From Candidatus Iainarchaeum sp. (GTDB lineage: Archaea > Iainarchaeota > Iainarchaeia > Iainarchaeales > DTGL01): 13,530 nt of DNA. Location of the stretch: NCBI GenBank assembly GCA_038736825.1, contig JAVYME010000001.1, positions 1 to 13,530 on the forward strand, read 5' to 3'. Shown here piece after piece: positions 1-13,530 of the stretch; the stretch's first letter is position 1; the number at the start of each line of letters is the position of its first letter. The notes beneath the pieces are model-generated. The model saw nothing but the letters and a program-made list of their open reading frames with translations, was not told the origin of the DNA and searched no databases. A program made the translations under genes and the position numbers.

Positions 1-1199
1 TGCATGTTGAAGGCTTTCCCCCAAAAACAATATTAAAGGCTTTGAGCACCACAGACCTTGAATTGAAGCCATTGCTGCCCCCTGACAAGGATCCATGCGA
101 AAGAATAATAGACTATTATGGTGGAAAAAAAGACGATCCAACCACTTGCCTTTACTTTGAGGGACCCCCAAACGAGGGACAAATGTACAAGGACCTGCAA
201 AGAATGTATCCCAATAAAAGCAAGGAATTCTTGATGACAGAGCTTGCAATCCAAAAAGCTCGCTTTTTCACAATGCCAGGCAACGATATAACCCAGTACA
301 ATATTGTTTTCGGCATAATGCTCACAGCAGCCGCTTGCTTTTTCACATGGTTCTATTTTAGGAACATTTACAAGCGCAGAATCCAGGAAAAAATAATGAC
401 AATAGAAACAGAATTCAAGGACTCTTTATACATAATTGCTTCAAGGCTTGGGGAAAACAAGCCCTTAGAGGAAGCAATAAGGCATGCAAAAGAATTCCTG
501 CCAAACTACATTATTTCAGACAGAATTTTTGGCAGAACCCTGGACAACATTCACTTGCTTGGCATGCCCATAGACTCAGCAGTGTTTGACCCACGCTTTG
601 GCTCGCTAGTGAACATTCCATCAAACACAATCCATGTTGGAATGCGCTTGGTGATAGATGCAACAAGGCTTGGAGTCAACATTGCAGCAAGAACACTGGT
701 GTCATTGTCACTCCAGCTTGACAATCAGGAAAAGGTTGCAAAAATGCTCAAAAACCTGGTTGTAGACTTAACCCAGATGATGAGAACAATGGCAATAATA
801 ATAACCCCCATAGTGCTAGGCATAACCACAGCGCTTTACACAGTGGTATTGCGCACTCTCTTAAGAATCGCCACTTCCGAAACAATGTCAGGAATAGAGG
901 AATCAAGCAAGGCAGCACGGGAAGCCGGAGCCTTTGGAGGCTTCACTTCAGGCAGTTTTGCAAAAGCAGAAGCAGTAATCAACATGGTAACCCCGGAATG
1001 GTTCATAATAATCATTGCAGTTTACGTGATTGAAATAGTGTTCATTGTAATCTATTTCACCACAAAAATAGAGGAAGACAACGACTTGCTCATGAAAATA
1101 TACCTTGCAAAATACCTTCCAATTGCACTAATAATGTTCGCAATATCCGTAACCCTTTCCAATCTTCTCCTCAACTCCTTTGGAGTGGTTGGAGGATGA
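1..1199 (+). CDS. Polytopic membrane platform protein of a type IV filament system (T2SS-F domain; FlaJ/TadC/PilC-like), 5'-partial
   Basis: The track ORF 42..1199 starts at a TTG. The same frame (codons from nt 3: H V E G F P P K T I L K A ...) has no stop back to the window edge, so the gene is probably truncated by the window. The translation has a soluble helical block (ETEFKDSLYIIASRLGENKPLEEAIRHAKEFLP...GMPIDSAVF...LVIDATRLGVNIAARTLVSLSLQL). Hydrophobic helices flank it (IVFGIMLTAAACFFTWFYF; AIIITPIVLGITTALYTVVL; WFIIIIAVYVIEIVFIVIYF; LPIALIMFAISVTLSNLLL). This is the layout of a T2SSF-type domain. It sits directly upstream of pilin-like genes, and its stop overlaps the next start (ATGA at 1196-1199). 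Confidence 0.6.
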   Translation, partial: HVEGFPPKTILKALSTTDLELKPLLPPDKDPCERIIDYYGGKKDDPTTCLYFEGPPNEGQMYKDLQRMYPNKSKEFLMTELAIQKARFFTMPGNDITQYNIVFGIMLTAAACFFTWFYFRNIYKRRIQEKIMTIETEFKDSLYIIASRLGENKPLEEAIRHAKEFLPNYIISDRIFGRTLDNIHLLGMPIDSAVFDPRFGSLVNIPSNTIHVGMRLVIDATRLGVNIAARTLVSLSLQLDNQEKVAKMLKNLVVDLTQMMRTMAIIITPIVLGITTALYTVVLRTLLRIATSETMSGIEESSKAAREAGAFGGFTSGSFAKAEAVINMVTPEWFIIIIAVYVIEIVFIVIYFTTKIEEDNDLLMKIYLAKYLPIALIMFAISVTLSNLLLNSFGVVGG

Positions 1200-1666
1200 A
1201 AACAAAAAAAAGCGAAAAAGGCATGTTTTGGCCCTTCAGGCTGCTCATTGCAGTAATCATTGCATTTGCAACCCTAATCATAATTCTTAGCACAATAAAC
1301 TATTTCCACCAGTACAGGCTCAAAGTCAGCTGGCAAAGGTTTTTGAACGCTTTTGAAGATGCCTACAATGCCCCAAGCACTCCAAGCCAGCCGGACAAAG
1401 GCATAAAAATAGAAAAAGACCTCGTGTTTGGCACAACCACAATTTCCTCAATAACCCTGGCACAACAATTCAACATGCCAGAGGAATGCATTACCTTTCA
1501 AGCACCAGGCTATTCGCAAATTGAAATCTTAAACTCTGGAAAAACCGCAAAAATCTCAAGGGAAATCAATTCAGCAGTATACTTTCAATGCATTGTTGAC
1601 GAAACAGACACTGCCTGCAAAACACGCTGCTATATTTCCTTCAGCCTTCCGCCGGAAATCCCCTAA
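1196..1666 (+). CDS. Small pilin-like protein with class III (type IV prepilin-like) signal peptide
   Basis: The 156-aa ORF is translationally coupled to the upstream gene (ATGA overlap, with GGAG/GGAGG just upstream). The N-terminus is MKTKKSEKG|MFWPFRLLIAVIIAFATLIIILS: a short basic leader ending in KG, then a ~22-residue hydrophobic helix. The helix and the C-terminal Cys pattern (..VYFQC..TAC..TRCYISFS) parallel the ORF at 7575 and the N-terminus of the ORF at 1704. Confidence 0.6.
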   Translation: MKTKKSEKGMFWPFRLLIAVIIAFATLIIILSTINYFHQYRLKVSWQRFLNAFEDAYNAPSTPSQPDKGIKIEKDLVFGTTTISSITLAQQFNMPEECITFQAPGYSQIEILNSGKTAKISREINSAVYFQCIVDETDTACKTRCYISFSLPPEIP

Positions 1667-1703: not shown

Positions 1704-4700
1704 ATGGAACAAAACACTTTCAGGCTGGCAGCATACGCTATAATTGCAGCAGTCCTGCTCTACATTTTCTTCTTCCACTTCGGCCCGCAATACATCTGGA
1801 AGGAAAAACCAGAACAAGTAATCCAAAACCAGCTCAAAACAGCGGAAACACAGATAGGGCATTACTCGCACCAAAAAGGAGAATTCCCAAAAGGCTTCAC
1901 AGTAATGGCAGACGGCTATGAATCCCAGTCAAGAAACGTAAACTTTGAATGCAATTACGATGTTTTCTGTTGCCCGAAAGGCGAGCCCTGCAATAAAGCA
2001 ATAGAATGGGACAACAACATGGAACGCCGCTATTTTTCCTTCAAACAACAAAAGCCAGTGGATGTATCAGCAAGATGCAGATACGAAGAAATATACATTT
2101 GCAAAGTATACCTTGGAAAAGAACCCGCACAAGTAAAAATAACAGAAACCGCACTATCAGAAAAAACCCTGGACTTGTCCCAAAAAAGAACCACCACAAT
2201 AAACTACAGCATAAAAAACACTGGCCAAAAAGAAATGGTTGCAGTGCAAGCAAAAGCCAAACTCTACAAAATCAAAAGGCTTCCATACGGGCTTGAACCG
2301 GAAAAAACACTCGTACGCGAATTCAAAGGAGAAGAATTCGCGCTCGGCATCGGACAAGAAAAAAGCCAAGAAATAAGCATAGCAATAGAGGAAAACGGCG
2401 ATTACCAGATAGAATTAACAGTGGAAGAAAAAACCGATCGCACAAACTATGAAACAAAAAAACTGGACTTGAACGCCACAGGACTGGTGGAAATCGGGGC
2501 ATGCATTCCAGGCCCAATGGAAAAAGAATATTTTTCAGAAAAAGAATGCCGTTACTATTTGCCCTGCGAAGACTGCAAAAGCATCCTGGAATGCGAAAGA
2601 AAATGGCGGGAAAAATTCTCAAACCTGCAAGGCTTTGAATTCGAATTAAAAAAATACGATGACATAAAAGGCAAAATAATAATGCAAGTGCCAGGCGAAC
2701 ACAGAAGGGAATGCACGCGCAACTGTTACCCAGAATACCAAGTGCTGCAACAACTAGCAAGATCAAGAAAACCCATAGACTTGGTTTTCGTAATAGACGC
2801 TTCAGGCTCCATGAGCGACGACATAGATGAAGTGCGCGGCGTAATAGAAAAAATACAGCAAGAAATAAGCACTGGCTGCAAAATAGGCGAAGACCAAGTG
2901 GGAGTGACACCAGAAGAATGCCTGCAAATAGGCTTGTATGTTTTTGAAGGCTCTTTCAAGGACTGCTGGGAAAACCCGCAAAACCCGTTCTTTGCAAACT
3001 GCTTGAAACAAATGCGAAGCACCCCCCTGGTCACACAATACGATTCCTATGCATATGTTGCATGCTTGAACGCTGAAGCAAACTTAGTCGACTTCTATAA
3101 AAAAAAATGCCCAAATTATTCAAGCCCACAGACACAGGCAATGTGCCAGAAAATTTTAACAGAAGTTGGAAGCGACACCCTGAAAAAAAACATTGATTCA
3201 AGGATACCGCAATCATGCAGGGAAACAACCTATTTCCAAAACCCCTTGAATGCAACCCCATCACTTAACGGCGTACAGTCAGACATAGGATATATTCCAA
3301 TAACAACAGAATTTGAAAAAATAAACGAATCCCTTGGAAGGATTATTGCCTCACAGGGCGTCGAGGCATGGAGTGACGCACTATACTTTGTAATGGCTTC
3401 ACCTCAAATGAACTGGAGACCCAACTCTGAAAAAGCAATAATCCTGATAACCGACACTGCAGACAACCCCAACGGAATCACCTATCTCACTCCAGAAGGG
3501 CCTTACACTGAAACAGAAGGCTCAGAGAAAAGCTTGCAGGAAACAGCGCTTCTCGCACAAGAGAAAAAAATAAGGGTTTTTTCGCTGGAAGGAAAAGGCT
3601 GTGATGCTTTTTCAAACGAAATCAAAACAGCACTCAATAATTACCTTTCAAGCTTTGGTTTAGAGTCAGCAGGAGGGTACCCTGAAGTCTGCCCTGGAAC
3701 AGACCTTGCAGCAATAAGCAATTGGACCAATGGCAGCCACATGCAATACAATCAAGCAAGCGATCTCCCGCAAAAAATACTGGACATTGTAAAGGACGAA
3801 GTGAGAAGAGCAAGCGAAAACCATGTCTTGAAAATCTGTGGAGAAAACGAAGCACCGGAAACCTGCAAGGAATACTGTGCACTGCCATGGGAAAGCAAGT
3901 GCCAGGACTGCTCTTGCTTTAAAGAATTTGATGGAAAAATTGAAGGTTACAGGCTGCTTGACCTAGCACTAATAATTGATGCCACTGGAAGCATGCAAAA
4001 AGAACTCCAGACAATGAAGGAAAAAATCGGAGAAATACTAGATGCCGCGCAAGCAGAATGCAAAAAAATCGGTGTAAAAAACTGCCTTAGTGTTTCCACA
4101 AGGTATGTGTTCGGCGGGCCAACCACAAAAAACCAGCCTTTTTCAAGCAACATGCAAGCAATAAAAAACAATATTGCAAGCGCCACCGCACTTGGAGGCG
4201 GAGACCTTCCAGACCCATGGGCGGGAGAAGCCCTGATTTCACTCAAAGGAATAATAAGGGAAAACAAAACAGAGCAATGGAGCCCGCACTCCAAAAAAAT
4301 AATGGTGATAATCACTGACGCTCCAAACAATCCCGACGAAATAGTCTTTGAAGACTATAGAAGAACAGTAAAAGCCACTCCAGCCACAACAGGAATAGAC
4401 AGCGTGATAACAGAATTAAGAGACACCGCAAAAAGAAACGGAATAAAAATTTTAGGACTTTACAGCGAAGACAATCCAGCCATTTCACCAAAAACACAGC
4501 TTGAATGGCTTGCAAGGGAAACCGGTGGAAAAGCAGTCAATTACACAAAAGGACAGGATTTTTCAAGCGAAATCACTTCACTGATAGTGCAAGAAATAAA
4601 AAGCGAAAGCGAAAAATCATGGTGCACTCCAGACCAGTGCAAGGTTTGCGCGGAAAGAACAGAGGATGCAGCCACAGTGCCACTTGAATGGGAATACAAG

Positions 4701-6008
4701 CTGAGCTGCACTGAAGACACAGAAAAATGCATGACTGTAATGACCTGCTATCCAGCCGAACTTTCCTTCACTGAATGCATTAAAAAATGGACTGAAACAG
4801 TTGTTGACAAAAGCACTCCATTATTGCAAGACCAGGAAAAAAAATGGCTTTACGCTGAAGGCATAAAGAAAAAAAACGGCGTGAAAACAAGCGAAGAAGA
4901 CTGGACTGAATGCGATCTGCCAAAAATAACAGAAACCTGTGGGGGCAGCACAGTGAAAAGAGGCGAATACAGGCCAGTGCAAATAGGTCCGTATGTGAGC
5001 CCAAGGGAAAACTGCACGAGCAATGAAGACTGCGAAACAATGGATTGCAGCACAAAACAATGCCCTGAAGGCCAAACTGCAAAAGGCGAATGCAGTGCCA
5101 GTGGAAAATGCGAGTGCACTTGCAGTGAAGAAATCGGAAAATTGCCTTCTACAGCCAGTGAAATTGAATGCGTTGAAAAACTTGCTGAAACCGATAACTG
5201 TTATTGTGAAACAGGCAATGAAGCACTGGAATACGCTGACAGGGTGCGAGAAGGCGGAAAGCCAGTGGACTTGCTATTGGTTGTTGACGCCACTTACAGC
5301 ATGCAACTTGAAGGAAAAGCTCTCGTGGAAGCATTCAGTGCACTAAACGAAAAAATGAAAGAACCCTGTGTTTTGGAAGACGGAAAAGCCTGCCTTGCTG
5401 TCGGCATAATAACAGTTGGAGGTTATGCAGCCCAGCGTGAAAAAAACCATTTCGTGAAAATTTCCGGTTCAGGCTTTCCCGTCCTTGAAAAAGGCTTGGG
5501 AGCAATAAGCATTTCCCATCGCTCGGAAGACATTGAAAAAATGCTTTCCTCTCTTGAAACCATTGGCTTTGTTGAAGAAGAAGAACCCTGGGCTGACGCC
5601 ATAGCATATGCTTTGAAATCGCCGGCAATGGGTTGGAGAGAAAACGCAAAAAAAGCATTACTGCTTATTGCAGGTGAACCAAATAATGCTTCAAAAACAG
5701 CGCTGGCTGAAGCAAAAAACATTATTGCCTCCAGCAATGCATCAGTTTATGCGGCTGTCAAAAACATGTCAACTGGCGGAATGTCGCCAGAAAAAGACGC
5801 ACAGGCAATAAGTGCAAAAAAAATATCCCCTTATTCCATTCAATTAGCACTAGACTATTCAAAAATCCAGTTCGATGATTCAGGCAAACCCTTTACAGAC
5901 ATACTCAAAATATTCTTGAAAGACATTGCAGAAGAACAAATATTGTTTGCAAAGAAAACCCCAAAATGCGCTCCAGAAAAATGCACTGAATGCAAAACCG
6001 CCGGATAA
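1704..6008 (+). CDS. Giant (1434 aa) cysteine-rich surface protein: pilin-like N-terminal module, CARDB-like Ig domain and three vWA/MIDAS modules (candidate modular pilin or pilus-associated adhesin)
   Basis: Uninterrupted 4.3-kb ORF. The N-terminus MEQNTFRLAAYAIIAAVLLYIFFF aligns with the hydrophobic helices of the two small pilin-like ORFs (PFRLLIAVIIAF / TFKLLIAAIVAV). The following ~110 aa share RNV.F.C and C.V.L-type motifs with them. Three vWA beta1/MIDAS signatures are present: DLVFVIDASGSM (nt 2778), DLALIIDATGSM (nt 3960) and DLLLVVDATYSM (nt 5268). Each is followed by a (P)W(A/S)(D/G) helix and a hydrophobic beta4 strand (ILITDTADN / VIITDAPNN / LLIAGEPNN). Confidence 0.75.
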   Translation: MEQNTFRLAAYAIIAAVLLYIFFFHFGPQYIWKEKPEQVIQNQLKTAETQIGHYSHQKGEFPKGFTVMADGYESQSRNVNFECNYDVFCCPKGEPCNKAIEWDNNMERRYFSFKQQKPVDVSARCRYEEIYICKVYLGKEPAQVKITETALSEKTLDLSQKRTTTINYSIKNTGQKEMVAVQAKAKLYKIKRLPYGLEPEKTLVREFKGEEFALGIGQEKSQEISIAIEENGDYQIELTVEEKTDRTNYETKKLDLNATGLVEIGACIPGPMEKEYFSEKECRYYLPCEDCKSILECERKWREKFSNLQGFEFELKKYDDIKGKIIMQVPGEHRRECTRNCYPEYQVLQQLARSRKPIDLVFVIDASGSMSDDIDEVRGVIEKIQQEISTGCKIGEDQVGVTPEECLQIGLYVFEGSFKDCWENPQNPFFANCLKQMRSTPLVTQYDSYAYVACLNAEANLVDFYKKKCPNYSSPQTQAMCQKILTEVGSDTLKKNIDSRIPQSCRETTYFQNPLNATPSLNGVQSDIGYIPITTEFEKINESLGRIIASQGVEAWSDALYFVMASPQMNWRPNSEKAIILITDTADNPNGITYLTPEGPYTETEGSEKSLQETALLAQEKKIRVFSLEGKGCDAFSNEIKTALNNYLSSFGLESAGGYPEVCPGTDLAAISNWTNGSHMQYNQASDLPQKILDIVKDEVRRASENHVLKICGENEAPETCKEYCALPWESKCQDCSCFKEFDGKIEGYRLLDLALIIDATGSMQKELQTMKEKIGEILDAAQAECKKIGVKNCLSVSTRYVFGGPTTKNQPFSSNMQAIKNNIASATALGGGDLPDPWAGEALISLKGIIRENKTEQWSPHSKKIMVIITDAPNNPDEIVFEDYRRTVKATPATTGIDSVITELRDTAKRNGIKILGLYSEDNPAISPKTQLEWLARETGGKAVNYTKGQDFSSEITSLIVQEIKSESEKSWCTPDQCKVCAERTEDAATVPLEWEYKLSCTEDTEKCMTVMTCYPAELSFTECIKKWTETVVDKSTPLLQDQEKKWLYAEGIKKKNGVKTSEEDWTECDLPKITETCGGSTVKRGEYRPVQIGPYVSPRENCTSNEDCETMDCSTKQCPEGQTAKGECSASGKCECTCSEEIGKLPSTASEIECVEKLAETDNCYCETGNEALEYADRVREGGKPVDLLLVVDATYSMQLEGKALVEAFSALNEKMKEPCVLEDGKACLAVGIITVGGYAAQREKNHFVKISGSGFPVLEKGLGAISISHRSEDIEKMLSSLETIGFVEEEEPWADAIAYALKSPAMGWRENAKKALLLIAGEPNNASKTALAEAKNIIASSNASVYAAVKNMSTGGMSPEKDAQAISAKKISPYSIQLALDYSKIQFDDSGKPFTDILKIFLKDIAEEQILFAKKTPKCAPEKCTECKTAG
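2133..2430 (+). other. CARDB-like / Ig-like beta-sandwich domain inside the giant ORF
   Basis: Segment KITETALSEKTLDLSQKRTTTINYSIKNTGQKEMVAVQAKAKLYK...EISIAIEENGDYQIELTVEE. The ..v.v.NtG....v.v.l. pattern is typical of CARDB-type domains. Recognised by eye only. Confidence 0.4.
2778..3600 (+). other. vWA module 1 (complete DxSxS MIDAS motif; contains a long insertion)
   Basis: DLVFVIDASGSMSDDIDEV ... GLYVFEGS ... VEAWSDALYFVMASP..NSEKAIILITDTADNPNG ... KKIRVFSLEG. The C-terminal boundary is approximate. Confidence 0.6.
3960..4600 (+). other. vWA module 2 (DxTxS MIDAS variant)
   Basis: DLALIIDATGSMQKELQTMKEKIGEIL ... RYVFGG ... DPWAGEALISL ... SKKIMVIITDAPNNPDE ... NGIKILGLYSED. Boundaries are approximate. 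Confidence 0.6.
5268..5940 (+). other. vWA module 3 (degenerate MIDAS: DxTxS, with the beta4 Asp position replaced)
   Basis: DLLLVVDATYSMQLEGKALVEAF ... GIITVGG ... EPWADAIAYALKSP..NAKKALLLIAGEPNN ... ASVYAAVKN. The residue equivalent to the TD of modules 1 and 2 is AG. Boundaries are approximate. Confidence 0.5.
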
Positions 6009-6029: not shown

Positions 6030-7429
6030 ATGTTGAAAAAAAACTGTTTTCTTTTGTTTTAGCCTTGCTTTTTACTGCTGTCACAGTAAATGCAATTTAC
6101 ACTGAATTTTTGCTTGCATTTTATCTACAAAACCAGACAGCATTTATAAAAACTGCAATTTTTGAAAACCAAATGGAAGAAATTGATAGGGCTTTCAGCC
6201 TTGGAACCGATCTTTCCACACTAAGAAGAAACGCTCAAAGCCCGGAATGGATTAAAGGAGAAAACGCGCTTGTCACGCGAATTAAAACCGAAATGCCTGC
6301 AACAGGAATAGGGTACTCCATTCTAAGAGACGGAATTGAATTAGACGGCGTGAGCACCACTTTACGCTTAGGTGACACCATTTCATTCAAGCCAAAAGTG
6401 GAAATTCCCTCTGATTGGACACAAGTCGGCGGAGTCATAGGCACTCCACCAATACAATTCCTAGCAGACCAAGAAAGAGACTCACTATACCTGAAACTCT
6501 TGCAAAAATTCAAGCAAAACTATCCCACTGGGCACCACTTCAACCATGTCTACAACTATATAGCCTTGGGAGCACAAGAAAAGTTTTCAACAAACCGCAC
6601 AACCTTCAAAACCACAGAAGACAATTACCTTGCAAGCAACGGATTTCCAGCATACATTACCCCAATAGCGGATGGAAGAAAAGCCGGAATCCAGATATTT
6701 TGCTCAAACAATTTGCGAAGCGAAACCCTTGAATGCATTGGCAAAGGAGAAACACTGGAATGCACAGTAAAAAAAAGCGGTTTGGCAGAAATAAGCTTGG
6801 AAAAAAACTGCTTTGTGCATGTTGACAAAATAATTTATGGAAACGAGGCAATAGACGCTGGATGGGTTTCACAGTTAGGCAGTCTTTCAGACAACACAAC
6901 ATACTATCCGCTCATGGTTTGGGGCAGCTATAAACTGGAATTGCAAGTAATTCCAAAAGGAAAAATTCCACCAGTAGCGGAATTAGAATGCACGGTTTTA
7001 AGCAAACCGCAACCACAAAACCCTTTGGGAGAAATAGAATGCAATGCATCACAATCCTATGACCCTGATGGAAAAATAGAAAGATTTGAATGGGATAAAG
7101 ACAAAACCGCTCCACCATTGCAAGTAAAATACAGAAGAAAGACTGCTTCAGAAGCTGCCGTAACACTGCGAGTCTATGACAATGACGGACTCTATGGAGA
7201 AAAAACCAAAATAGTTTATTGGGAAGGCGAACCAAAAAAACTGGAATTGTCAGCAGAATACAATGCTCCTACAAAAAAAGCAATGATTTCACTCAAAAAC
7301 TGCCCGCAAGGCACCACCCAAGCATTCATAGACATAGACTTATTGCAAGAAACAGATGCAAAAAAAACCCTTTCAGTTCTAGAAAAGCAACAATTCCATG
7401 CGAGCAAACCACTGCAGTTGGACCCATAA
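6030..7429 (+). CDS. Secreted PKD-domain protein; the reading frame is interrupted at an A8 tract right after the probable ATG start
   Basis: The track ORF is 6065..7429 with a TTG start. GGAGGG at 6016-6021 lies 8 nt before ATG 6030. From that ATG the frame gives MLKKNCFLLF then a stop at 6060-6062. One extra A in the A8 run (6036-6043) would give MLKKKLFSFVLALLFTAVTVNA|IYTEF, a textbook Sec signal peptide fused to the long ORF. A PKD-like signature lies downstream (see the separate feature). Confidence 0.6.
6036..6043 (+). repeat. A8 homopolymer at the frame break between ATG 6030 and the 6065..7429 ORF
   Basis: Counted directly: ...atgttg aaaaaaaa ctgtttt... A +1 (or -2) change in length restores a single ORF with a signal peptide. 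Confidence 0.8.
6980..7225 (+). other. PKD-like domain
   Basis: ELECTVLSKPQPQNPLGEIECNASQSYDPDGKIERFEWDKDK...AAVTLRVYDNDGLYGEKTKIVYW. This matches the S.DPDG.I..Y.WD ... v.D..G pattern characteristic of PKD domains. Confidence 0.6.
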
Positions 7430-7574: not shown

Positions 7575-8183
7575 ATGAATTTTTTAGGGGTGAAGAAAGT
7601 GTTTTTTTTGGGACAAAAAGGACAAGCCTTTTCTACATTCAAATTGTTGATTGCTGCAATTGTGGCAGTAGTGATACTGGTTATTTTGCTTTCAATTTTG
7701 GGCATAATAAATTTTTCGCCCAGAAACCAGCCGATTGTGGGTGCAACTGATGCTTTAAAGGAAGCATACCAGACAAAGACTCTTCTTTACACTAGCCGAG
7801 AGCCAGTGACTTTCACAAGGGATAACAGTATTATTACCAGCATGGCAATAGTGGAAAGAGCAAATGTTGGGTTGGCTGAAGACCAAGTGTGCTTGAGTTT
7901 GGGAGAATTGACAGATGCTGCCTCATTAGCTGGGTTTAAAGGAAATGATGAAGGCGCTTGGAAAAAAATAGAATACACTGCTGGCGGTCAAAGGAACGTA
8001 AAGTTTGCAGTTCTATGCATGGAGGGAAAGAGCATTCCAGACCAGGTTGGAAGCGACCAGGTTGGAAGCGGCAACACCTATCAAGATATAGACGAGGCTT
8101 GGGTTGAAAACTGCCCTTGCGTGAAGGATAAAACCATTAACAAAGACATTTGCTGCGTTATAATGCTAAAGTATGCAAGGTAA
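7575..8183 (+). CDS. Pilin-like protein with class III signal peptide (KGQ|AFS type)
   Basis: 202-aa ORF. The N-terminus is MNFLGVKKVFFLGQKG|QAFSTFKLLIAAIVAVVILVILLSILGIINF. The KGQ-x-S context followed by a ~25-residue hydrophobic helix resembles archaeal type IV pilin/Epd-type prepilins. The C-terminal half is Cys-containing (VCLSLG, AVLCMEG, NCPCVKD, DICCVIMLKY). A GTG at 7590 (giving MKKVFFLGQKG|Q) is an alternative start. Confidence 0.65.
   Translation: MNFLGVKKVFFLGQKGQAFSTFKLLIAAIVAVVILVILLSILGIINFSPRNQPIVGATDALKEAYQTKTLLYTSREPVTFTRDNSIITSMAIVERANVGLAEDQVCLSLGELTDAASLAGFKGNDEGAWKKIEYTAGGQRNVKFAVLCMEGKSIPDQVGSDQVGSGNTYQDIDEAWVENCPCVKDKTINKDICCVIMLKYAR
8040..8069 (+). repeat. Perfect 15-bp tandem duplication (gaccaggttggaagc x2), in frame inside the pilin-like gene (DQVGS-DQVGS)
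   Basis: Unit 1 is 8040-8054 and unit 2 is 8055-8069. They are identical when read directly from the sequence. Confidence 0.9.
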
Positions 8184-8206
8184 AAAAAAAAACAGAATGG
8201 AACAAA

Positions 8207-8845
8207 ATGGTTTCAAAAAAACCCGCGGGCTTTTTTCAAAAAGCCCGTTCTTTTTTTTATCGCGGCCTTGAAGGAATTGCAGTTGAAGAGTTCAGGGAGA
8301 AGGCTGGCGAAGAGGCAAAAAAATCTGCAAAATTTTTGTTTTTAGCCTTTTTCTTTATTTTTGCCCTTTTTGTGCTTTCAAGCCTTGTGCCATTGGAGTG
8401 GAGTGAAAGGCTTGTGGCAAACACTGTGCTTTACGGCTTGAACTCGCAAGGCTTGAAGGGCAGAATTGAAGCCTCTCCCACTGGAGATGCTGTCCTGATA
8501 TTATTGGAAAACGGTCCAAGAATAGAAATATCGTATCTTTGCACTGGGCTTTTGGAAACAATATTGCTTGCTGGAGTTATTTTAGCCTCTGCAGGCATTC
8601 CAATATATAAAAGAATAATTGGTGTGATTGTTGGAGGGATTGCTGCAATGGTTTTAAACCTTGCAAGGATTTTCATCACTATTTTTTTCATTTACAATTC
8701 TGGCATTGAAACAGTGGAATTCATTCACGATTTTTTTTTCCGTGCCTTCCTGTTTGTTTCGGTTTTCTGCATTTATGCTTTTTGGTTTAAGTGGGCGACA
8801 GGCGGTTTCAGTGAAAGGCAGTCTGTAAAAAAAAAAACAGGTTGA
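8207..8845 (+). CDS. Exosortase/archaeosortase-family integral membrane protein (short form, ~212 aa)
   Basis: The track gives a TTG at 8150, which overlaps the previous gene. The first in-frame ATG after that gene's stop is 8207 (MVSKKPAGFF...). The protein is multi-pass hydrophobic. It has the family-like signature order Cys in EISYLCTGLLETILLAG (codon 8540-8542), Arg in AMVLNLARIFITIFF (8666-8668), then IHDFFFRAF (His 8726-8728, Arg 8741-8743). This resembles the CSG ... N..RI ... H/R motifs of exosortase/archaeosortase enzymes. Recognised by eye only. Confidence 0.65.
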   Translation: MVSKKPAGFFQKARSFFYRGLEGIAVEEFREKAGEEAKKSAKFLFLAFFFIFALFVLSSLVPLEWSERLVANTVLYGLNSQGLKGRIEASPTGDAVLILLENGPRIEISYLCTGLLETILLAGVILASAGIPIYKRIIGVIVGGIAAMVLNLARIFITIFFIYNSGIETVEFIHDFFFRAFLFVSVFCIYAFWFKWATGGFSERQSVKKKTG

Positions 8846-8926: not shown

Positions 8927-11900
8927 ATGGGTGTTTCTGACTCTTTGAGCGGTATTTACATTAAGGCAGAGGATGCCTGGTACAAGCTGGTGGACTCGCT
9001 TTCAGAAAAAGGCATTCCATTATATGCTTACACTGATTTTTTGGACAAGCGCGGCATTCCAAGTTTTCCTTTCACAATTGCCCTCATATTCATTTTGTTG
9101 GCGCTTGCAATTTTTTTCCTTGCAGGAAACAATGTAGAAGTGAACCTCAGACTGCGCTTTTCCGACGAAGAAGGAAATCCAGTAAACGATGTTTCAGTGT
9201 CTGTTTCATATGATAGTGGCACAGCAATAGGGAGCCAGAAAATGGCAAGCAATTCCACTTGGACTATTAAAAACGTGCCAATGAACTCTAAAATTGTTGT
9301 TTCTCCGAGAAAAGAGGGCTTTGAACCTCCAAAAGAGCAAACCATTGTTGCTGACGGGCGAAAAGAACACCCTCTTTCTTTTTCCTTTAAAAAACCGCGC
9401 ACTTACATTACCGGCTTACTGCAAGTGAAATCTTCCACTGGCACAACAATAAAGAACGCTGAATGCCTTGTTTTGACTGATGAAAAACGCCAAATAAAAG
9501 GCTTGCAGGTTGAAGACAAGATTTCTTTTGCCAACGTGCCAGCCGGCATTCCGGTTGTTTTGACTTGCAGTGCAAGTGGGTATGAAAGCATAGATGAAGA
9601 GGAAGTCATATTCAAAAAAGACACTGTTTACTTTGTTTCAATGAATCCCAAAACCGCAGGTCTTGAAGGAAAAGAGCGCGTGAACGTGCTTTTCAGGTTG
9701 CTTGACAAGGAATCAAAAGAACCAGTGGGAATTGCCAAAATCAGGATTTTCAAAGAAGGCGATGAAAAGCCATTGTTTGAGGATGAAACAGATGAAACAG
9801 GAGAGTATGTTGCAGAGATTTTAGCTGGAACCATAATAAGGGCTTCAATTGAAGCCCAAGGCTATATTTCAAAAAACACTGATCCTGTCACTGTTGTCAA
9901 AGAAATGCCTCCAATAATTGTATTAATGGAATTGGGTGGCAGGACTGTTTCTGTCACAGTTGTTTCAAAAACCGGACTGCCAGTGAATGACGTGATTGTT
10001 TCATTGTACACTGAGGACGGCGTTCTAATTGAATCCAAAAAAACCACTAGCGGGCCTTTTGGCGGAAACGCTGTTTTTGCAAACTTGGATCCAAACAAAA
10101 CCTATTACCTTACTGCATACAAGCAGGGTTTTTTGCCAAAGCGCGTCAAATTCTCTCCATCAGAAGAACCTGACTTGAAAATAGAGCTTGAAAACGCAAG
10201 CCCGAGCAATTCTGCAAGGCTTACTCTCACGGTTTTGGATTCAGAGGGCTTGCCTGCAAAAAATGCAAAAATAAGGTTTTATGCATTAGAGGGTGACAAA
10301 AAGGTTCCGCTTGGCATTCCACAAATGGAAACAGACATGCAGGGAAAAGTCAGCGTTATAGTGCCAGAAGGCAAACTGTTAGTGGAGGCAGAAACAGACA
10401 CTGAAATCCAGAGAAAAGAGTTTGACATCAAGGCGGGCAATGATGTCACTGACACGATTTCAATGGAGCGCAAACCCAACCTTGTGGAATTAAAGTTTTT
10501 GGATGACGAGGGAAACCCGATAAAGGGCGACATCATAATTCGCTCTAAAAGCGGGGAAATTCTTTTCAAGGGGCGTCCCTCCAAGGACGGAACAGTGGTT
10601 TTTGACGCAAAGGGCAATGAAACCTTTGACGTGGAAGTCACAACTGATAACGGCAAAAAGTTCACTGAAGAGGTTAGGATTGGGGGAGAAAAAAAAGCCA
10701 CTGTCACAATTACAACAACTGAAGCAAAGCTTTTCCCAAAAATAGAGTTTGCTGGAGTGTTTGACGGAAAAGGGCAAAAAGTGGAAGGCATTTCAAGAGG
10801 AGAATTTTACTGGCTCAAGTTTGTTGTTTCCTGGCAGAGCAATGAACAGGCAGGCGTTCACATAAGGCTTGGCGAAGACGAAAAACCCTTTGCTGAATCC
10901 ATGGAATTCGGTGTTTACGGGTTTGATGCTGTTGCCAGAAGGTTTTTTTACGGGAAAAGCTATCAGCCTCCCTTGGGCACAAGGGAAGACAAAGCCAATT
11001 CTGGAACCGCGGGAGAAAAAAACAAGTTTGTTGAATTGTATTTTGACCAGCCAGCGGACCAGCAAGTGATAAAGGTTAAAGTGAAAGCCAACGAAATTGG
11101 CACTGCAACAAAAATGCCTGTTTATTTCAGGGCTTGGGTGAAAGCAGGCACTCAATATTACAGGGATCCCGAAGACAGCGAGCTTGAAAAGGCATTGAGC
11201 ACAAACACCAAGGCATCCCTTTACGCTGCCACCAAAAAAGAAGAAGTCAAAATCTTTTCCTCAAAGCCAAAGTGCGCTGAAGGAATATGCATTGAAGCCT
11301 CCTTCTTTGATGATGAAAGCAGAGAGCAAAAAAGCCAGGATTTCAGGGCAGTGATTGGAAGAAGGTATGCAATAGAGGCAAGGGTTAGCGCTGACGCTGT
11401 AAAAACCGTGGAATTGACTGCAGAAACAACAGAACAGGAAAAAATAAGGTTTTCAGAATTCAGGGAGGGCACAAGCACTCTCTGGCCTGATTCAGGCTAT
11501 GACAAGCAAAGCGTTTCAATAAGCGGATTGCGGGTTTCAGAGTCAACCACTGCAAGAGCAAGAGCCTATTTTGAGGCAAAAGCCCAAGGCACTGGATATA
11601 TTAAAATAACAGCAAGAGAAGGCGAAAAACAGGCAGAGCAAAAGTTTTATTTCAAGATAACAGGCATAAGGGAAATGGATTTAGTGCTTGCAGGCAATGG
11701 TTCCATAAAACCGGGTGAAAAGCTCTCACTAACCTTAAAAGAAAAAGAAACCGGTTATGCATTGACAGACGCACAATTCACTGTTCTTTCCGGTGAAAGG
11801 CCTGTTCTTTTCTTTAAGGGAACAGGTGAGGAAGGCAATGGCCTTGACGGCAAATATCTTTTGGGAACCGAAACACTTGGCCCTGGCGCTTACAAGTTGA

Positions 11901-13530
11901 TTGCTTCAAAGCGCGATTACCAGGACAAGCAGGCACAGTTCACTGTATCAATTGAAAACATTTTGACACTGGAAGGCGAGCCAGAGTTCTTCCTTGACAA
12001 AGCCAAAACACAGGCAACCTTTCCACTTACAATAAAAAACAATGTGGCAACAGCAAAAGTGGAATCCCTTTCATACGAATTTTATCCTCAAAAAGGCTGG
12101 CTTGAAAACTTTTCGCTTGAAGTGCCGCTTCCAAGCGGTGGAATAAGAGGCGGAGGCTCAGTCTTTCCAGTGCTAAAAGCAGCATACATTGGAAGCGAGC
12201 CAAATGCAAGCGTTCACGCTGAAGGCGAACTCTTAATCAGGGGAGTTTTAGACACTGGCTTGGTTGCAGAGGCAAAAACCCAAGTGAAGGCAAACTACAA
12301 CAAGCCAGTGCCAAGCGAATGCCTTGAAATAAAGCCTTCAACAGTTGAAGCCTCCATTCTGGGAACAGCGAATTCAACCACAACAGTTGAAATTACAATA
12401 GAATACAAAGCCTCGGAAAAATGCAGGGACGCTTTATTGCTTAAAACCAGTGCAGAGCCAAAGCGAAAAACCGAACAACCACTGAAAATAACAGCGCCGG
12501 ACATAAAAATTTCCCCAGGGGAATCAAAAACAGTGGCAATCACTATAACAAATCCAATTGAAAGGCAAACAGAAGGAATGCAGTCAGCGGATTACACTTT
12601 AACAATTGAATCCGAAAAAGTAACCAAGAGCGCTTTGCTGAAAGTCTACTTTGTAAACCCGTATTTTTCGCTTCAAACAAACGACAACATTCCCATTTTT
12701 GCAACCTTGGGCGAAGACGGCAAAGTAAGAGGGCTTGCCCCATTATACATAAGCAATGTTGGCAGGAAAACAATTGAAAACATAAAAGCAAAAGAAAGCG
12801 GACTCATCACAAAAAAACATCCCTTCAATGTAAGAATCAGGCCTTCAGAGATTGCACTTGCGCCGCAAGCGGAAGCAATTGCAACCCTGAAAAGCGGGGA
12901 ACAAATAACACCTCCATGGATTATAGAAGTAACATCCGATGCAGCAACCTATGAAAGCGAATACGAAATATACATTGACATTAGCGGCACAATTGACGGC
13001 AAAAACTATAATCCAATGAAAACCATAAAAGCAATAGTAAAAGTCTCCATTTCGCAATGCTTAAAACTGATTTCAGCCGCAGGCGGCTTGGAATTCTCAA
13101 GCCCGGACAGCTCGCAAGGAGTAATATCAAAAAAAGTAACATTGAAAAACCAGTGCGGGGAAGGACTCAGAAACATAGAAATCCTGCCAGCAAGATTTGG
13201 ACAAAACGAGATATCATTATACAGAGCCAATGCACTCAACAGCCTTGGCATTGGCGAAGAAGCAGAATTCCAGGTAAGGCTTACAAAAAGAAGCGATTAC
13301 TTCAACCAGTCAAACCCTGAAACAATAATTGCAAGAGGCTTGCTTGAAAACAGCCAGGAATTCATAGAATCAAACCCGTTATCCATAATAATAATGATAG
13401 GACAGGTTCCGGAAACAGCGCCAGGCCCATCATTTGACGAAGTACAAATACCTGTCTGCGAATCCGACACCAAAGAAATCAAAGCCGTAAGGTTCCCTCA
13501 AACTGCAAGAGAAGCAGAATGCGAAAGAGC
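8927..13530 (+). CDS. Giant surface protein, 3'-partial (>1534 aa): N-terminal cytoplasmic segment, one signal-anchor helix, six tandem Ig-like repeats and further Ig/CARDB-like domains. Not present in the supplied ORF track.
   Basis: I translated the frame starting at ATG 8927 codon by codon to 13528 and found no stop. An in-frame stop lies upstream at 8888-8890, and a TTG at 8906 is an alternative start. The N-terminus is MGVSDSLSGIYIKAEDAWYKLVDSLSEKGIPLYAYTDFLDKRGIPSFPFTIALIFILLALAIFFLAG (helix about 9065-9127). The rest is beta-rich and shows RNY-type codon periodicity. All track ORFs in 9028-13482 are on the opposite strand, are 60-170 aa long and are rich in Phe, Ser, Leu and Cys, as expected for antisense shadows. 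Confidence 0.85.
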   Translation, partial: MGVSDSLSGIYIKAEDAWYKLVDSLSEKGIPLYAYTDFLDKRGIPSFPFTIALIFILLALAIFFLAGNNVEVNLRLRFSDEEGNPVNDVSVSVSYDSGTAIGSQKMASNSTWTIKNVPMNSKIVVSPRKEGFEPPKEQTIVADGRKEHPLSFSFKKPRTYITGLLQVKSSTGTTIKNAECLVLTDEKRQIKGLQVEDKISFANVPAGIPVVLTCSASGYESIDEEEVIFKKDTVYFVSMNPKTAGLEGKERVNVLFRLLDKESKEPVGIAKIRIFKEGDEKPLFEDETDETGEYVAEILAGTIIRASIEAQGYISKNTDPVTVVKEMPPIIVLMELGGRTVSVTVVSKTGLPVNDVIVSLYTEDGVLIESKKTTSGPFGGNAVFANLDPNKTYYLTAYKQGFLPKRVKFSPSEEPDLKIELENASPSNSARLTLTVLDSEGLPAKNAKIRFYALEGDKKVPLGIPQMETDMQGKVSVIVPEGKLLVEAETDTEIQRKEFDIKAGNDVTDTISMERKPNLVELKFLDDEGNPIKGDIIIRSKSGEILFKGRPSKDGTVVFDAKGNETFDVEVTTDNGKKFTEEVRIGGEKKATVTITTTEAKLFPKIEFAGVFDGKGQKVEGISRGEFYWLKFVVSWQSNEQAGVHIRLGEDEKPFAESMEFGVYGFDAVARRFFYGKSYQPPLGTREDKANSGTAGEKNKFVELYFDQPADQQVIKVKVKANEIGTATKMPVYFRAWVKAGTQYYRDPEDSELEKALSTNTKASLYAATKKEEVKIFSSKPKCAEGICIEASFFDDESREQKSQDFRAVIGRRYAIEARVSADAVKTVELTAETTEQEKIRFSEFREGTSTLWPDSGYDKQSVSISGLRVSESTTARARAYFEAKAQGTGYIKITAREGEKQAEQKFYFKITGIREMDLVLAGNGSIKPGEKLSLTLKEKETGYALTDAQFTVLSGERPVLFFKGTGEEGNGLDGKYLLGTETLGPGAYKLIASKRDYQDKQAQFTVSIENILTLEGEPEFFLDKAKTQATFPLTIKNNVATAKVESLSYEFYPQKGWLENFSLEVPLPSGGIRGGGSVFPVLKAAYIGSEPNASVHAEGELLIRGVLDTGLVAEAKTQVKANYNKPVPSECLEIKPSTVEASILGTANSTTTVEITIEYKASEKCRDALLLKTSAEPKRKTEQPLKITAPDIKISPGESKTVAITITNPIERQTEGMQSADYTLTIESEKVTKSALLKVYFVNPYFSLQTNDNIPIFATLGEDGKVRGLAPLYISNVGRKTIENIKAKESGLITKKHPFNVRIRPSEIALAPQAEAIATLKSGEQITPPWIIEVTSDAATYESEYEIYIDISGTIDGKNYNPMKTIKAIVKVSISQCLKLISAAGGLEFSSPDSSQGVISKKVTLKNQCGEGLRNIEILPARFGQNEISLYRANALNSLGIGEEAEFQVRLTKRSDYFNQSNPETIIARGLLENSQEFIESNPLSIIIMIGQVPETAPGPSFDEVQIPVCESDTKEIKAVRFPQTAREAECER
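9134..10720 (+). repeat. Six divergent tandem ~85-90-aa Ig-like repeats (CarboxypepD_reg / Cna-B-like pattern) at the protein level
   Basis: Units start near 9134, 9404, 9674, 9941, 10211 and 10478. Each has the pattern hydrophobic strand + D/S-x-x-G-x-P-(V/I)-x-x-A/V-x-(V/I) ... G ... hydrophobic strands ...G(Y/F)... Examples: LRFSDEEGNPVNDVSVSV, RLLDKESKEPVGIAKIRIF, VVSKTGLPVNDVIVSLY, TVLDSEGLPAKNAKIRFY, KFLDDEGNPIKGDIIIRS. The DNA-level identity between units is low. Confidence 0.6.

What the first reader, a model, noticed from the sequence alone, without database searches (positions are those of the whole stretch)
8207..8845. Short archaeosortase/exosortase-family gene wedged between a pilin gene and a giant surface protein, with no sorting-signal substrate visible in the window
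The 212-aa membrane protein carries the ordered Cys / N..R / H..R motifs (YLCTGLLE, LNLARIF, IHDFFFRAF) expected of exosortase/archaeosortase transpeptidases. These enzymes normally act on proteins with a C-terminal tripartite signal: a short motif, a TM helix and a basic tail. None of the complete proteins here ends that way. The vWA giant ends ...KCAPEKCTECKTAG, and the pilin-like proteins end ...SLPPEIP and ...IMLKYAR. The obvious candidate substrate is therefore the adjacent giant ORF, whose C-terminus lies beyond the window. If it has such a signal, it would have an anchor helix at both ends before processing. The enzyme is also much shorter than ArtA-type archaeosortases, which suggests a dedicated single-substrate subfamily.
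Basis: partly seen in the sequence, partly recalled or inferred. Interest (0 to 1): 0.7.

Follow-up and report, generated by a model that had tools for sequence, protein, structure and literature searches.

The report
Exosortase-family enzyme inside archaeal pilus cluster
The small gene is a genuine exosortase/archaeosortase-type membrane enzyme that belongs to a type IV pilus-like gene cluster of tiny DPANN archaea, and its likely target is not the giant neighbour but a ~1,550-residue cluster protein, encoded outside this window, that ends in a previously uncatalogued 'FNLPSLP' sorting signal.

Summary
Observation confirmed. ORF 8207-8845 (212 aa) passes the exosortase/archaeosortase signature model and Pfam EpsH. 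Its Cys112, Arg154 and His174 are invariant in 63 relatives. It reaches no named subfamily cut-off.

The context is a conserved type IV pilus-like cluster of Iainarchaeia (Diapherotrites). It holds a secretion ATPase, a platform protein, about seven pilin-like proteins, the sortase, a 2,400-2,950-aa giant and a 536-aa pilin-like protein.

About 20 full-length orthologues of the downstream giant have no C-terminal helix plus basic tail. The giant instead has a conserved 45-aa N-terminal domain followed by a prepilin-like 'RG|IPSFPF' helix.

At the far end of the same cluster lies an unannotated ~1,550-aa secreted protein, which I call F1163. All 31 complete members retrieved by protein search end in [FL]N[LI]P[SG][LIM]P, a roughly 20-residue hydrophobic stretch and a basic tail. 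That is a classic tripartite sortase signal, and no NCBIfam model matches it.

This protein is seen with the sortase in about 12 clusters, including the window's own clade. In this genome it should lie about 8-12 kb upstream of the window; that is unverified.

Best reading (confidence about 0.6): a dedicated one-enzyme, one-target system built into a pilus machine. It is a new variant of a known kind.

The parts
1..1199 (+). C-terminal half of the ~775-aa pilus platform protein (TadC/FlaJ/T2SSF-like). The gene runs off the 5' end of the window.
   Evidence: The frame is open from base 3. It is 70% identical to residues 408-781 of the L003 platform protein. The orthologue in L065 has a weak PF00482 T2SSF match and sits next to a PF00437 T2SSE ATPase.
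1196..1666 (+). Pilin-like protein, my family 'PIL_B' (156 aa), with N-terminal KGMFWPFRLLIAVIIAF helix.
   Evidence: the family is found in 26 related loci, always next to the platform gene.
1704..6008 (+). 1434-aa VWA-domain surface protein with a pilin-like N-terminal helix (MEQNTFRLAAYAIIAAVLL). It is an accessory member found only in the window's clade.
   Evidence: Pfam VWA_4 and VWA hits. Orthologues are in L001, L003 and, shorter, L066. It has no C-terminal helix.
6065..7429 (+). 454-aa accessory protein. It is the TM-less paralogue of the L001 503/522-aa proteins.
   Evidence: it ends ...KPLQLDP with no helix. L001 and L003 additionally carry a 509-517-aa neighbour with a Pro/Thr linker, a TM helix and a Lys tail, which the window lacks.
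7575..8183 (+). Pilin, my family 'PIL_A' (202 aa), with a class III (prepilin) signal ...GQKG|QAFSTFKLLIAAIVAVVIL.
   Evidence: the family is in 31 related loci and lies directly upstream of the sortase in the co-linear clade.
8207..8845 (+). Exosortase/archaeosortase-family membrane cysteine transpeptidase (212 aa). It has a Lys-rich cytoplasmic N-tail, about 4 TM helices and a small extracytoplasmic beta-sheet. Cys112 is at 8540-8542, Arg154 at 8666-8668 and His174 at 8726-8728.
   Evidence: TIGR04178 43.1 bits (cut-off 23) and PF09721 26.8 (gathering score 25.7). Cys, Asn, Arg and His are invariant in 23 database homologues and in 63 locus homologues. The AlphaFold2 model has pLDDT 83.7.
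8927..13530 (+). First 1534 aa of the giant surface protein (orthologues are 2,400-2,950 aa). It has a conserved 45-aa N-terminal domain (8927-9061), then a prepilin-like 'KRG|IPSFPF' site and TM helix (about 9050-9130), then Ig-like/CarboxypepD_reg repeats.
   Evidence: The N-terminal domain HMM finds one copy in 49 loci, usually immediately downstream of the sortase. Complete orthologues have no C-terminal sorting signal.

Best explanation
ORF 8207-8845 is a catalytically intact, short exosortase/archaeosortase-family transpeptidase. It is a fixed component of an Iainarchaeia-specific type IV pilus-like gene cluster.

The cluster contains an ATPase, a platform protein, about seven pilin-like proteins, a giant pilin-like adhesin and a 536-aa pilin-like protein.

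Its most likely substrate is not the adjacent giant. It is a single cluster-encoded ~1,550-aa secreted protein (my label F1163). That protein carries a Sec signal peptide and a conserved C-terminal tripartite signal: F-N-L-P-S-L-P, a roughly 20-residue helix, and a Lys/Arg tail.

Inferred mechanism, by analogy with ArtA/PGF-CTERM and XrtA/PEP-CTERM:
- F1163 is exported and held in the membrane by its C-terminal helix.
- The Cys/Arg/His site of the enzyme, predicted to face the outer side of the membrane, cuts at or just after the FNLPSLP motif.
- The enzyme then transfers the protein to a new anchor, probably a lipid, leaving F1163 attached at the base or surface of the pilus apparatus.

Shown: family membership, conserved catalytic residues, cluster membership, absence of a signal on the giant, and presence and conservation of the signal on F1163.

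Inferred: the enzyme-substrate pairing, the cleavage chemistry, and that this genome has F1163 roughly 8-12 kb upstream of the window.
For: - Family: TIGR04178 and PF09721 both score above their cut-offs.
- Catalytic residues: Cys112, Asn151 and Arg154 are in 63/63 relatives and His174 in 62/62.
- Topology: the Lys-rich N- and C-tails and the K135/R136 loop place Cys, Arg and His at the outer face. This rests on the sequence plus the secondary structure.
- Cluster: the sortase lies in 59 Iainarchaeia loci next to the T2SSE ATPase, platform and pilins.
- F1163 signal: the 33 homologues show 29-100% identity to the query. All 31 complete ones end in [FL]N[LI]P[SG][LIM]P, 34-47 residues from the end, followed by a hydrophobic stretch (peak hydropathy 2.4-3.1) and 2-6 Lys/Arg.
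- Motif conservation: the motif window is the 8th most conserved of 1,471 seven-column windows, and Asn and both Pro are invariant.
- Same cluster or contig as the sortase: L017, L052, L054, L025, L044, L064; the L012 contig (L070) and the L021 genome (L069); the L022 contig, inferred from its identical length; L085 and L088.
- The window's own clade: L065 holds the start of the gene, and L071 holds the full protein ending ...GGIFNLPSLPENPVEIVLYFLALVIASYALVYRKKFCLKQ.
- No rival enzyme: the only other cluster membrane protein next to F1163 (F180) has no conserved catalytic-type residues.
Against: - The pairing is by gene-cluster association only.
- F1163 sits 12-14 kb from the sortase, at the opposite end of the cluster, whereas the giant is the immediate neighbour in most loci.
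- Two loci of a distant F1163 clade (L067, L068) show no sortase within 10 kb.
- The window's own contig could not be retrieved. F1163 is therefore not demonstrated in this genome.
- Gene calls in the loci are my own crude calls.
- Other C-terminally anchored proteins, without the motif, lie next to the sortase in some loci: L011, L014, L015, L022, L030, L044.
Confidence: 0.6

Rival explanations
1. The adjacent giant protein is the substrate after all, through a non-canonical signal. The enzyme would act at the outer end of the giant's N-terminal anchor helix, or on another conserved segment. It would release the giant or transfer it, for example onto the pilus.
For: This is the tightest gene linkage. 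The giant's N-terminal domain is found in 49 loci, usually starting 35-900 nt downstream of the sortase. The N-terminus is extremely conserved: a 45-aa domain followed by [KR]G[IL]PxFP and a helix.
Against: - There is no C-terminal signal in about 20 complete orthologues.
- The stretch just outside the N-terminal helix is not conserved.
- The conserved 'RG|IPSFPF' lies on the cytoplasmic side. It resembles the class III prepilin signal of pilin family PIL_C, which is a prepilin-peptidase site and not a sortase site.
- The predicted active site of exosortases faces outward. This is inference from charge distribution.
Confidence: 0.12
2. The enzyme serves a dispersed or variable set of C-terminally anchored surface proteins, not one dedicated target. 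These would include accessory cluster proteins with a Sec signal, a TM helix and a basic tail, and proteins elsewhere in the genome.
For: Such proteins sit directly beside the sortase in several loci: a ~205-aa protein overlapping the sortase start in L011 and L044, 257 aa in L014 and L015, 1119 aa in L022, 1680 aa in L030, and 509-517 aa in L001 and L003. Three of them share a loose 'QPL[DE]' before the helix (my reading).
Against: - They are sporadic, present in about 14 of 57 loci, and absent from the window and from L065 and L066.
- They belong to unrelated families and share no strongly conserved motif.
- No NCBIfam CTERM model matches them.
- C-terminal anchors are common on archaeal surface proteins, so the enrichment is weak: about 3% of the locus proteins.
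Confidence: 0.15
3. The protein has lost transpeptidase function. It would serve as a structural or scaffolding membrane subunit of the pilus machine.
For: No canonical substrate is adjacent. Other mini-exosortases (XrtF, XrtG) have no recognised targets; this is from my own knowledge of the NCBIfam descriptions and was not tested here.
Against: Cys, Arg, His, the Asn of the N..R motif and Glu117 are invariant across 63 homologues that are otherwise only 30-76% identical. That pattern argues for retained catalysis.
Confidence: 0.05

Closest known systems
Archaeosortase A (ArtA) with PGF-CTERM substrates (Haloferax volcanii S-layer glycoprotein)
   Same: Same superfamily signature (TIGR04178) and the same Cys/Arg/His catalytic set. 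It is an archaeal host. The proposed substrate has the same tripartite C-terminal layout: a short Pro-containing motif, a TM helix and a basic tail.
   Different: The window protein has 212 aa and about 4 helices, against a larger multi-helix ArtA. No ArtA model hit was listed. The motif is FNLPSLP and not PGF. There appears to be one target per cluster, not many dispersed targets. The gene sits inside a type IV pilus-like cluster.
Exosortase X (NCBIfam NF046081) and other mini-exosortases (XrtH, XrtF, XrtG, XrtM, ArtD, pacearchaeosortase NF033505)
   Same: Similar length and near full-length alignment. XrtX is the best-scoring subfamily model: 52.6 bits, E 4.7e-14, covering model positions 11-162 of 168.
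   Different: All scores are far below the curated cut-offs: 52.6 against 170 for XrtX, 17.2 against 80 for pacearchaeosortase, and 16.9 against 125 for ArtD. It is therefore a member of none. I found no literature on XrtX.
XrtA/EpsH with PEP-CTERM proteins (bacterial exopolysaccharide loci)
   Same: Pfam PF09721 match to the C-terminal catalytic half. The signal logic is the same. Several F1163 tails read ...LPSLPE[ND]P..., which resembles PEP.
   Different: The window protein lacks the N-terminal half of the 8-TM EpsH (TIGR02602 scores only 7.9 bits). The host is an archaeon. The genomic partner is a pilus machine and not an EPS operon.
Rhombosortase with GlyGly-CTERM substrates of the Vibrio type II secretion system (PMC6219818)
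   Same: Functional analogy: a C-terminal tripartite signal is processed by a dedicated membrane enzyme on cargo handled by a type IV pilus-related machine.
   Different: The enzyme family is unrelated (a rhomboid serine protease). The system is bacterial. The analogy rests on the literature and was not tested here.

Membership tests
Exosortase/archaeosortase superfamily (TIGR04178 / PF09721) | Signature HMM score above the curated cut-off | tested here: met
   TIGR04178 scores 43.1 bits against 23. PF09721 scores 26.8 against 25.7, which is marginal.
Exosortase/archaeosortase superfamily (TIGR04178 / PF09721) | Ordered, conserved Cys, Arg (N..R) and His residues | tested here: met
   C112, N151 and R154 are in 63/63 relatives and H174 in 62/62. 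They are also invariant in the 23 database homologues.
Exosortase/archaeosortase superfamily (TIGR04178 / PF09721) | Polytopic membrane protein with the catalytic residues at the extracytoplasmic face | tested here: inconclusive
   The AlphaFold2 model (pLDDT 83.7) gives helices 26-58, 115-127, 133-164 and 167-211, plus a three-stranded sheet at 85-108. The outward orientation is inferred from the positive-inside rule only. No solved homologue exists.
Exosortase/archaeosortase superfamily (TIGR04178 / PF09721) | Cognate C-terminal tripartite sorting signal (motif, TM helix, basic tail) in the same genome | not testable with these tools
   There is none in the window, and the window's contig could not be fetched. 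In related clusters, F1163 carries an FNLPSLP signal in 31/31 complete members, including the window's clade (L071).
Exosortase X (NF046081) | Score at or above the curated cut-off of 170 bits | tested here: not met
   52.6 bits.
Pacearchaeosortase (NF033505) / archaeosortase D (TIGR04175) | Score at or above the curated cut-off (80 / 125 bits) | tested here: not met
   17.2 and 16.9 bits.
Archaeosortase A (ArtA) | Match to the ArtA equivalog model and PGF-CTERM substrates | tested here: not met
   No ArtA model appears among the 11 NCBIfam hits at E<=10. No PGF-CTERM hit was found on any neighbour or tail tested.
Archaeal type IV pilus-like system (context of the gene) | T2SSE-type ATPase, T2SSF/TadC-type platform protein and proteins with class III (prepilin) signals in one cluster | tested here: met
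   PF00437 scores 62 bits on the 773-aa ATPase. PF00482 on the platform protein is weak: 21.1 bits against 25.2. The window's platform fragment is 70% identical to the L003 platform. KGQ|AFSTF-type N-termini occur on PIL_A to PIL_F. No prepilin peptidase gene was seen in the clusters.

The most novel reading that the evidence does not exclude
The sortase does more than anchor one protein to lipid. As a transpeptidase built into a type IV pilus machine, it would covalently join F1163 to the giant pilin-like adhesin or to a pilin subunit, or would process the giant's unusual N-terminal anchor. That would be an archaeal counterpart of sortase-assembled pili, grafted onto an otherwise non-covalent type IV pilus. 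It would also explain why the enzyme is always co-transcribed with the giant while its canonical-looking substrate lies at the other end of the cluster.
Probability: 0.1. Interest if true: 0.85.

Novelty: new variant of a known kind. Interest (0 to 1): 0.55.

Why it matters
Exosortase and archaeosortase systems are known as partners of exopolysaccharide loci (PEP-CTERM) or of S-layer biogenesis (ArtA/PGF-CTERM). Here an uncatalogued subfamily is a fixed part of a type IV pilus-like machine in DPANN archaea. These organisms are thought to live attached to hosts and rely on surface appendages and giant adhesins.

The work gives a concrete, testable enzyme-substrate pair: the sortase and a ~1,550-aa protein with a new 'FNLPSLP' C-terminal signal. 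It also defines the full parts list of the apparatus, including a 2,700-aa pilin-like giant with a 45-aa leader domain.

It would allow two new annotation models (enzyme subfamily and CTERM domain). It also shows that 'no substrate next door' does not mean 'no substrate'.

Tried and rejected
- **Recovering the window's own contig to read the giant's C-terminus.** The exact-protein look-up failed for the sortase, for the identical P0001 and for the pilin. An exact 67-nt search of JGI metagenomes found nothing. The genome is not among the GTDB representatives. I therefore used orthologues.
- **Giant as canonical substrate.** Rejected, because complete orthologues lack a C-terminal helix and tail. 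The weakly hydrophobic, Cys-containing segments about 700 aa from the C-terminus are conserved, but they are not followed by a basic cluster or by the protein end.
- **Known CTERM models on all candidate tails.** PGF, PEF, PEP, Heimdall, GGIII and LPXTG gave nothing significant.
- **Sortase as a replacement for the missing prepilin peptidase.** Considered and rejected, because the predicted active site faces outward while class III signals are cut on the cytoplasmic side.
- **F180, the 180-aa membrane protein beside F1163, as an alternative processing enzyme.** Rejected, because only W, P, K, F and Y are invariant.
- **Pilin C-termini (CC-hydrophobic-K/R, and PMLLVVVAW) as mini-signals.** They are too short to span a membrane and are more likely terminal beta-strands or disulphides. 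I did not pursue them.
- **Protein search with the giant's 86-aa N-terminus.** It returned nothing, which I attribute to the word index.
- **Structure and sequence searches of the PDB.** No solved relative was found.
- **Literature.** I found no paper linking archaeosortases with DPANN pili, and nothing on XrtX or pacearchaeosortase.

Full report
**1. The observation**

ORF 8207-8845 (+) encodes 212 aa. Profile searches place the protein in the exosortase/archaeosortase superfamily:
- NCBIfam TIGR04178 scores 43.1 bits (cut-off 23, E 3.9e-11).
- Pfam PF09721 scores 26.8 bits (gathering score 25.7).

The best subfamily model is exosortase X at 52.6 bits, far below its cut-off of 170. Pacearchaeosortase (17.2 against 80), ArtD, XrtH, XrtF, XrtG, XrtM, XrtR and XrtS are also below their cut-offs. 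It is a genuine family member but belongs to no named subfamily.

A 100% identical protein (P0001) from a 'Candidatus Diapherotrites archaeon' MAG (157-kb contig) is generically annotated by NCBI as 'exosortase/archaeosortase family protein'.

**2. Is it likely to be active?**

In 23 database homologues, Cys112, Asn151, Arg154, His174 and Arg179 are invariant. In 63 homologues recovered from related loci, Cys112, Gly114, Glu117, Asn151 and Arg154 are 63/63 and His174 is 62/62.

An AlphaFold2 model (pLDDT 83.7, pTM 0.72) shows four long helices and a three-stranded sheet at 85-108, just before the Cys. With the Lys-rich N- and C-tails and the K135/R136 loop placed inside, Cys, Arg and His fall at the outer membrane face. 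This is inference.

No solved structure resembles it by sequence or by fold. A full HMMER scan of 1.84 billion representatives finds 65 clusters at E<=1e-30 and 251 at E<=1e-10.

**3. Context**

Homologues 52-76% identical show the same gene order as the window:
- T2SSE ATPase (~760 aa)
- platform protein (~775 aa)
- pilin PIL_B
- optionally a VWA giant and ~500-aa proteins
- pilin PIL_A
- sortase
- giant (2,449-2,727 aa)
- a ~560-aa pilin-like protein

A scan of one genome per GTDB species returned 59 loci. Almost all are Iainarchaeia/Diapherotrites MAGs. Using my own crude gene calls and BLAST clustering, the commonest layout is:

[PIL_F PIL_E PIL_D PIL_C PIL_A PIL_B platform ATPase]< >[sortase giant P536]

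The ATPase matches PF00437 and the platform weakly matches PF00482. The window's first ORF is the C-terminal half of the platform gene, 70% identical to that of L003, and it runs off the window. The PIL families have class III signal-type N-termini such as KGQ|AFSTFKLLIAA. The sortase is therefore a core gene of a type IV pilus-like system.

**4. The giant is not a canonical substrate**

The giant family occurs in 45 of 61 loci by clustering and in 49 by an HMM of its N-terminus. It usually starts 35-900 nt after the sortase.

About 20 complete members (2,404-2,949 aa) end in ordinary soluble sequence. Their homologous C-terminal ~1,000 residues contain only weakly hydrophobic, Cys-bearing segments, with no terminal helix plus basic tail.

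What is conserved is the N-terminus: a ~45-aa domain, then [KR]G[IL]Px[FL]P and a helix. That site aligns with the class III signal of pilin family PIL_C. Compare KRG-IPSFPFTIAL with SKG-QESAPFELLI. The giant therefore looks like a pilin-like protein with an unusually long leader.

**5. A canonical signal elsewhere in the cluster**

I screened all locus proteins for a C-terminal helix plus short tail. This gave sporadic accessory proteins and a family (F1163) ending 'PFNLPSLPE', helix, basic tail.

A database search with an F1163 alignment gave 33 homologues, with 29-100% identity to the query.
- All 31 complete ones carry [FL]N[LI]P[SG][LIM]P 34-47 residues from the end, then a strongly hydrophobic stretch and 2-6 Lys/Arg.
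- The two exceptions are truncated records.
- In a 30-sequence alignment (pairwise identity 26-83%), the seven motif columns average 0.91 conservation against 0.59 overall. That ranks 8th of 1,471 windows.
- F1163 has an N-terminal Sec-type signal peptide and no Pfam or NCBIfam family.
- No NCBIfam CTERM model matches its tail.

**6. Linkage of F1163 to the sortase**

F1163, usually preceded by a 180-aa membrane protein (F180) and a Zn-ribbon protein, lies just beyond PIL_F. That is the end of the cluster opposite the sortase.

Both genes are seen together in:
- L017, L052, L054, L025, L044 and L064;
- the L012 contig, about 13.6 kb apart (L070);
- the L021 genome (L069);
- two PIL_E-centred metagenome loci of a distant clade, whose F1163-like proteins end LAALPW[MT]P, helix, basic tail (L085, L088).

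For the window's own co-linear clade:
- L065 (sortase 58% identical) shows the start of a 1,549-aa gene in the expected place.
- L071 (PIL_E 73% identical to that of L065) shows the complete 1,591-aa protein ending ...GGIFNLPSLPENPVEIVLYFLALVIASYALVYRKKFCLKQ.

F180 has no conserved catalytic-type residues. The sortase is thus the only candidate processing enzyme in the cluster.

Two loci of the most distant F1163 clade have pilins, F180 and F1163 but no sortase within 10 kb.

**7. Interpretation**

The most economical reading is a dedicated exosortase-type pair, sortase plus F1163, embedded in a pilus machine. The giant would be a pilus-associated, prepilin-like adhesin and not a sortase substrate.

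The cleavage and transfer chemistry is inferred from ArtA and XrtA. The presence of F1163 in this particular genome, expected about 8-12 kb upstream of the window, could not be checked.

The rivals are: a non-canonical action on the giant; a broader set of C-terminally anchored accessory proteins; and a non-catalytic role. None is excluded, but each has weaker support.

**8. Novelty**

The generic annotation already exists. The subfamily, its fixed place in a type IV pilus-like cluster, the FNLPSLP signal and the F1163 family are absent from NCBIfam release 20 and Pfam. They are also absent from the papers I could search, including the survey of archaeal type IV pili (PMC4858521) and reviews of archaeal surface biogenesis.

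I rate it a new variant of a known kind, of moderate interest.

Noticed in passing
window 8927-9130; L065 19831-20585: The giant's N-terminus contains an internal repeat (EKGIPLYAY ... KRGIPSFPF). A second giant-like gene in L065 has only the first half (DEKGIP followed directly by the helix). The 45-aa leader domain matches no Pfam or NCBIfam family.
   Followed up: partly
window 6065-7429; L001 3941-8651; L003 7751-9280: The window's 454-aa ORF is the helix-less paralogue of a small family and ends about 25 residues earlier than its L001 relatives. L001 and L003 also carry a 509-517-aa protein in the same position, with a Pro/Thr-rich linker, a TM helix and a Lys tail. The window lacks that protein.
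   Followed up: partly
L001 10752-15044: The giant orthologue is cut short at 1,350 aa. It is followed immediately by an N6/N4 DNA methylase gene, which suggests disruption or an assembly break.
   Followed up: no
L070 1296-2489: A TnpB/Cas12f-like (PF07282) gene is inserted between the platform gene and PIL_B of the pilus cluster.
   Followed up: no
protein P0137: In this 1,102-aa database protein, a sortase domain (residues 10-188) continues into a large pilin-like protein with a duplicated 'KREQGSGMERKG' linker. It is either a real fusion or a read-through gene call.
   Followed up: no
L017 13983-14522, L065 108-644, L067 9446-9988, L070 9450-9983: A ~180-aa polytopic membrane protein (F180) almost always sits directly upstream of F1163, and a Zn-ribbon protein (F257) lies nearby. 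Their functions are unknown, and only W, P, K, F and Y are invariant in F180.
   Followed up: partly
related loci (PIL_E family), e.g. L065 2176-2682: Pilin-like family PIL_E has an invariant N-terminal GPIGDDLPSLIP before its helix and a conserved hydrophobic C-terminus (...PMLLVVVAW). The 'LPSL' resembles the F1163 motif and the giant's 'IPSFP', which may be coincidence.
   Followed up: no
window 8183-8193, 8732-8740, 8828-8837: Homopolymer runs (A10-11, T9, A10) flank the sortase gene or lie inside it. One lies in the codons of the HDFFFR motif. These are potential slippage or sequencing-error sites in an AT-rich genome.
   Followed up: no
L067 14672-24598; L069 15947-20001; L070 17436-21775: A second, ordinary-sized T2SSE/T2SSF pilus locus, together with a PAC2 gene, lies just beyond F1163 in several genomes. 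These archaea therefore carry at least two type IV pilus-like systems side by side.
   Followed up: no
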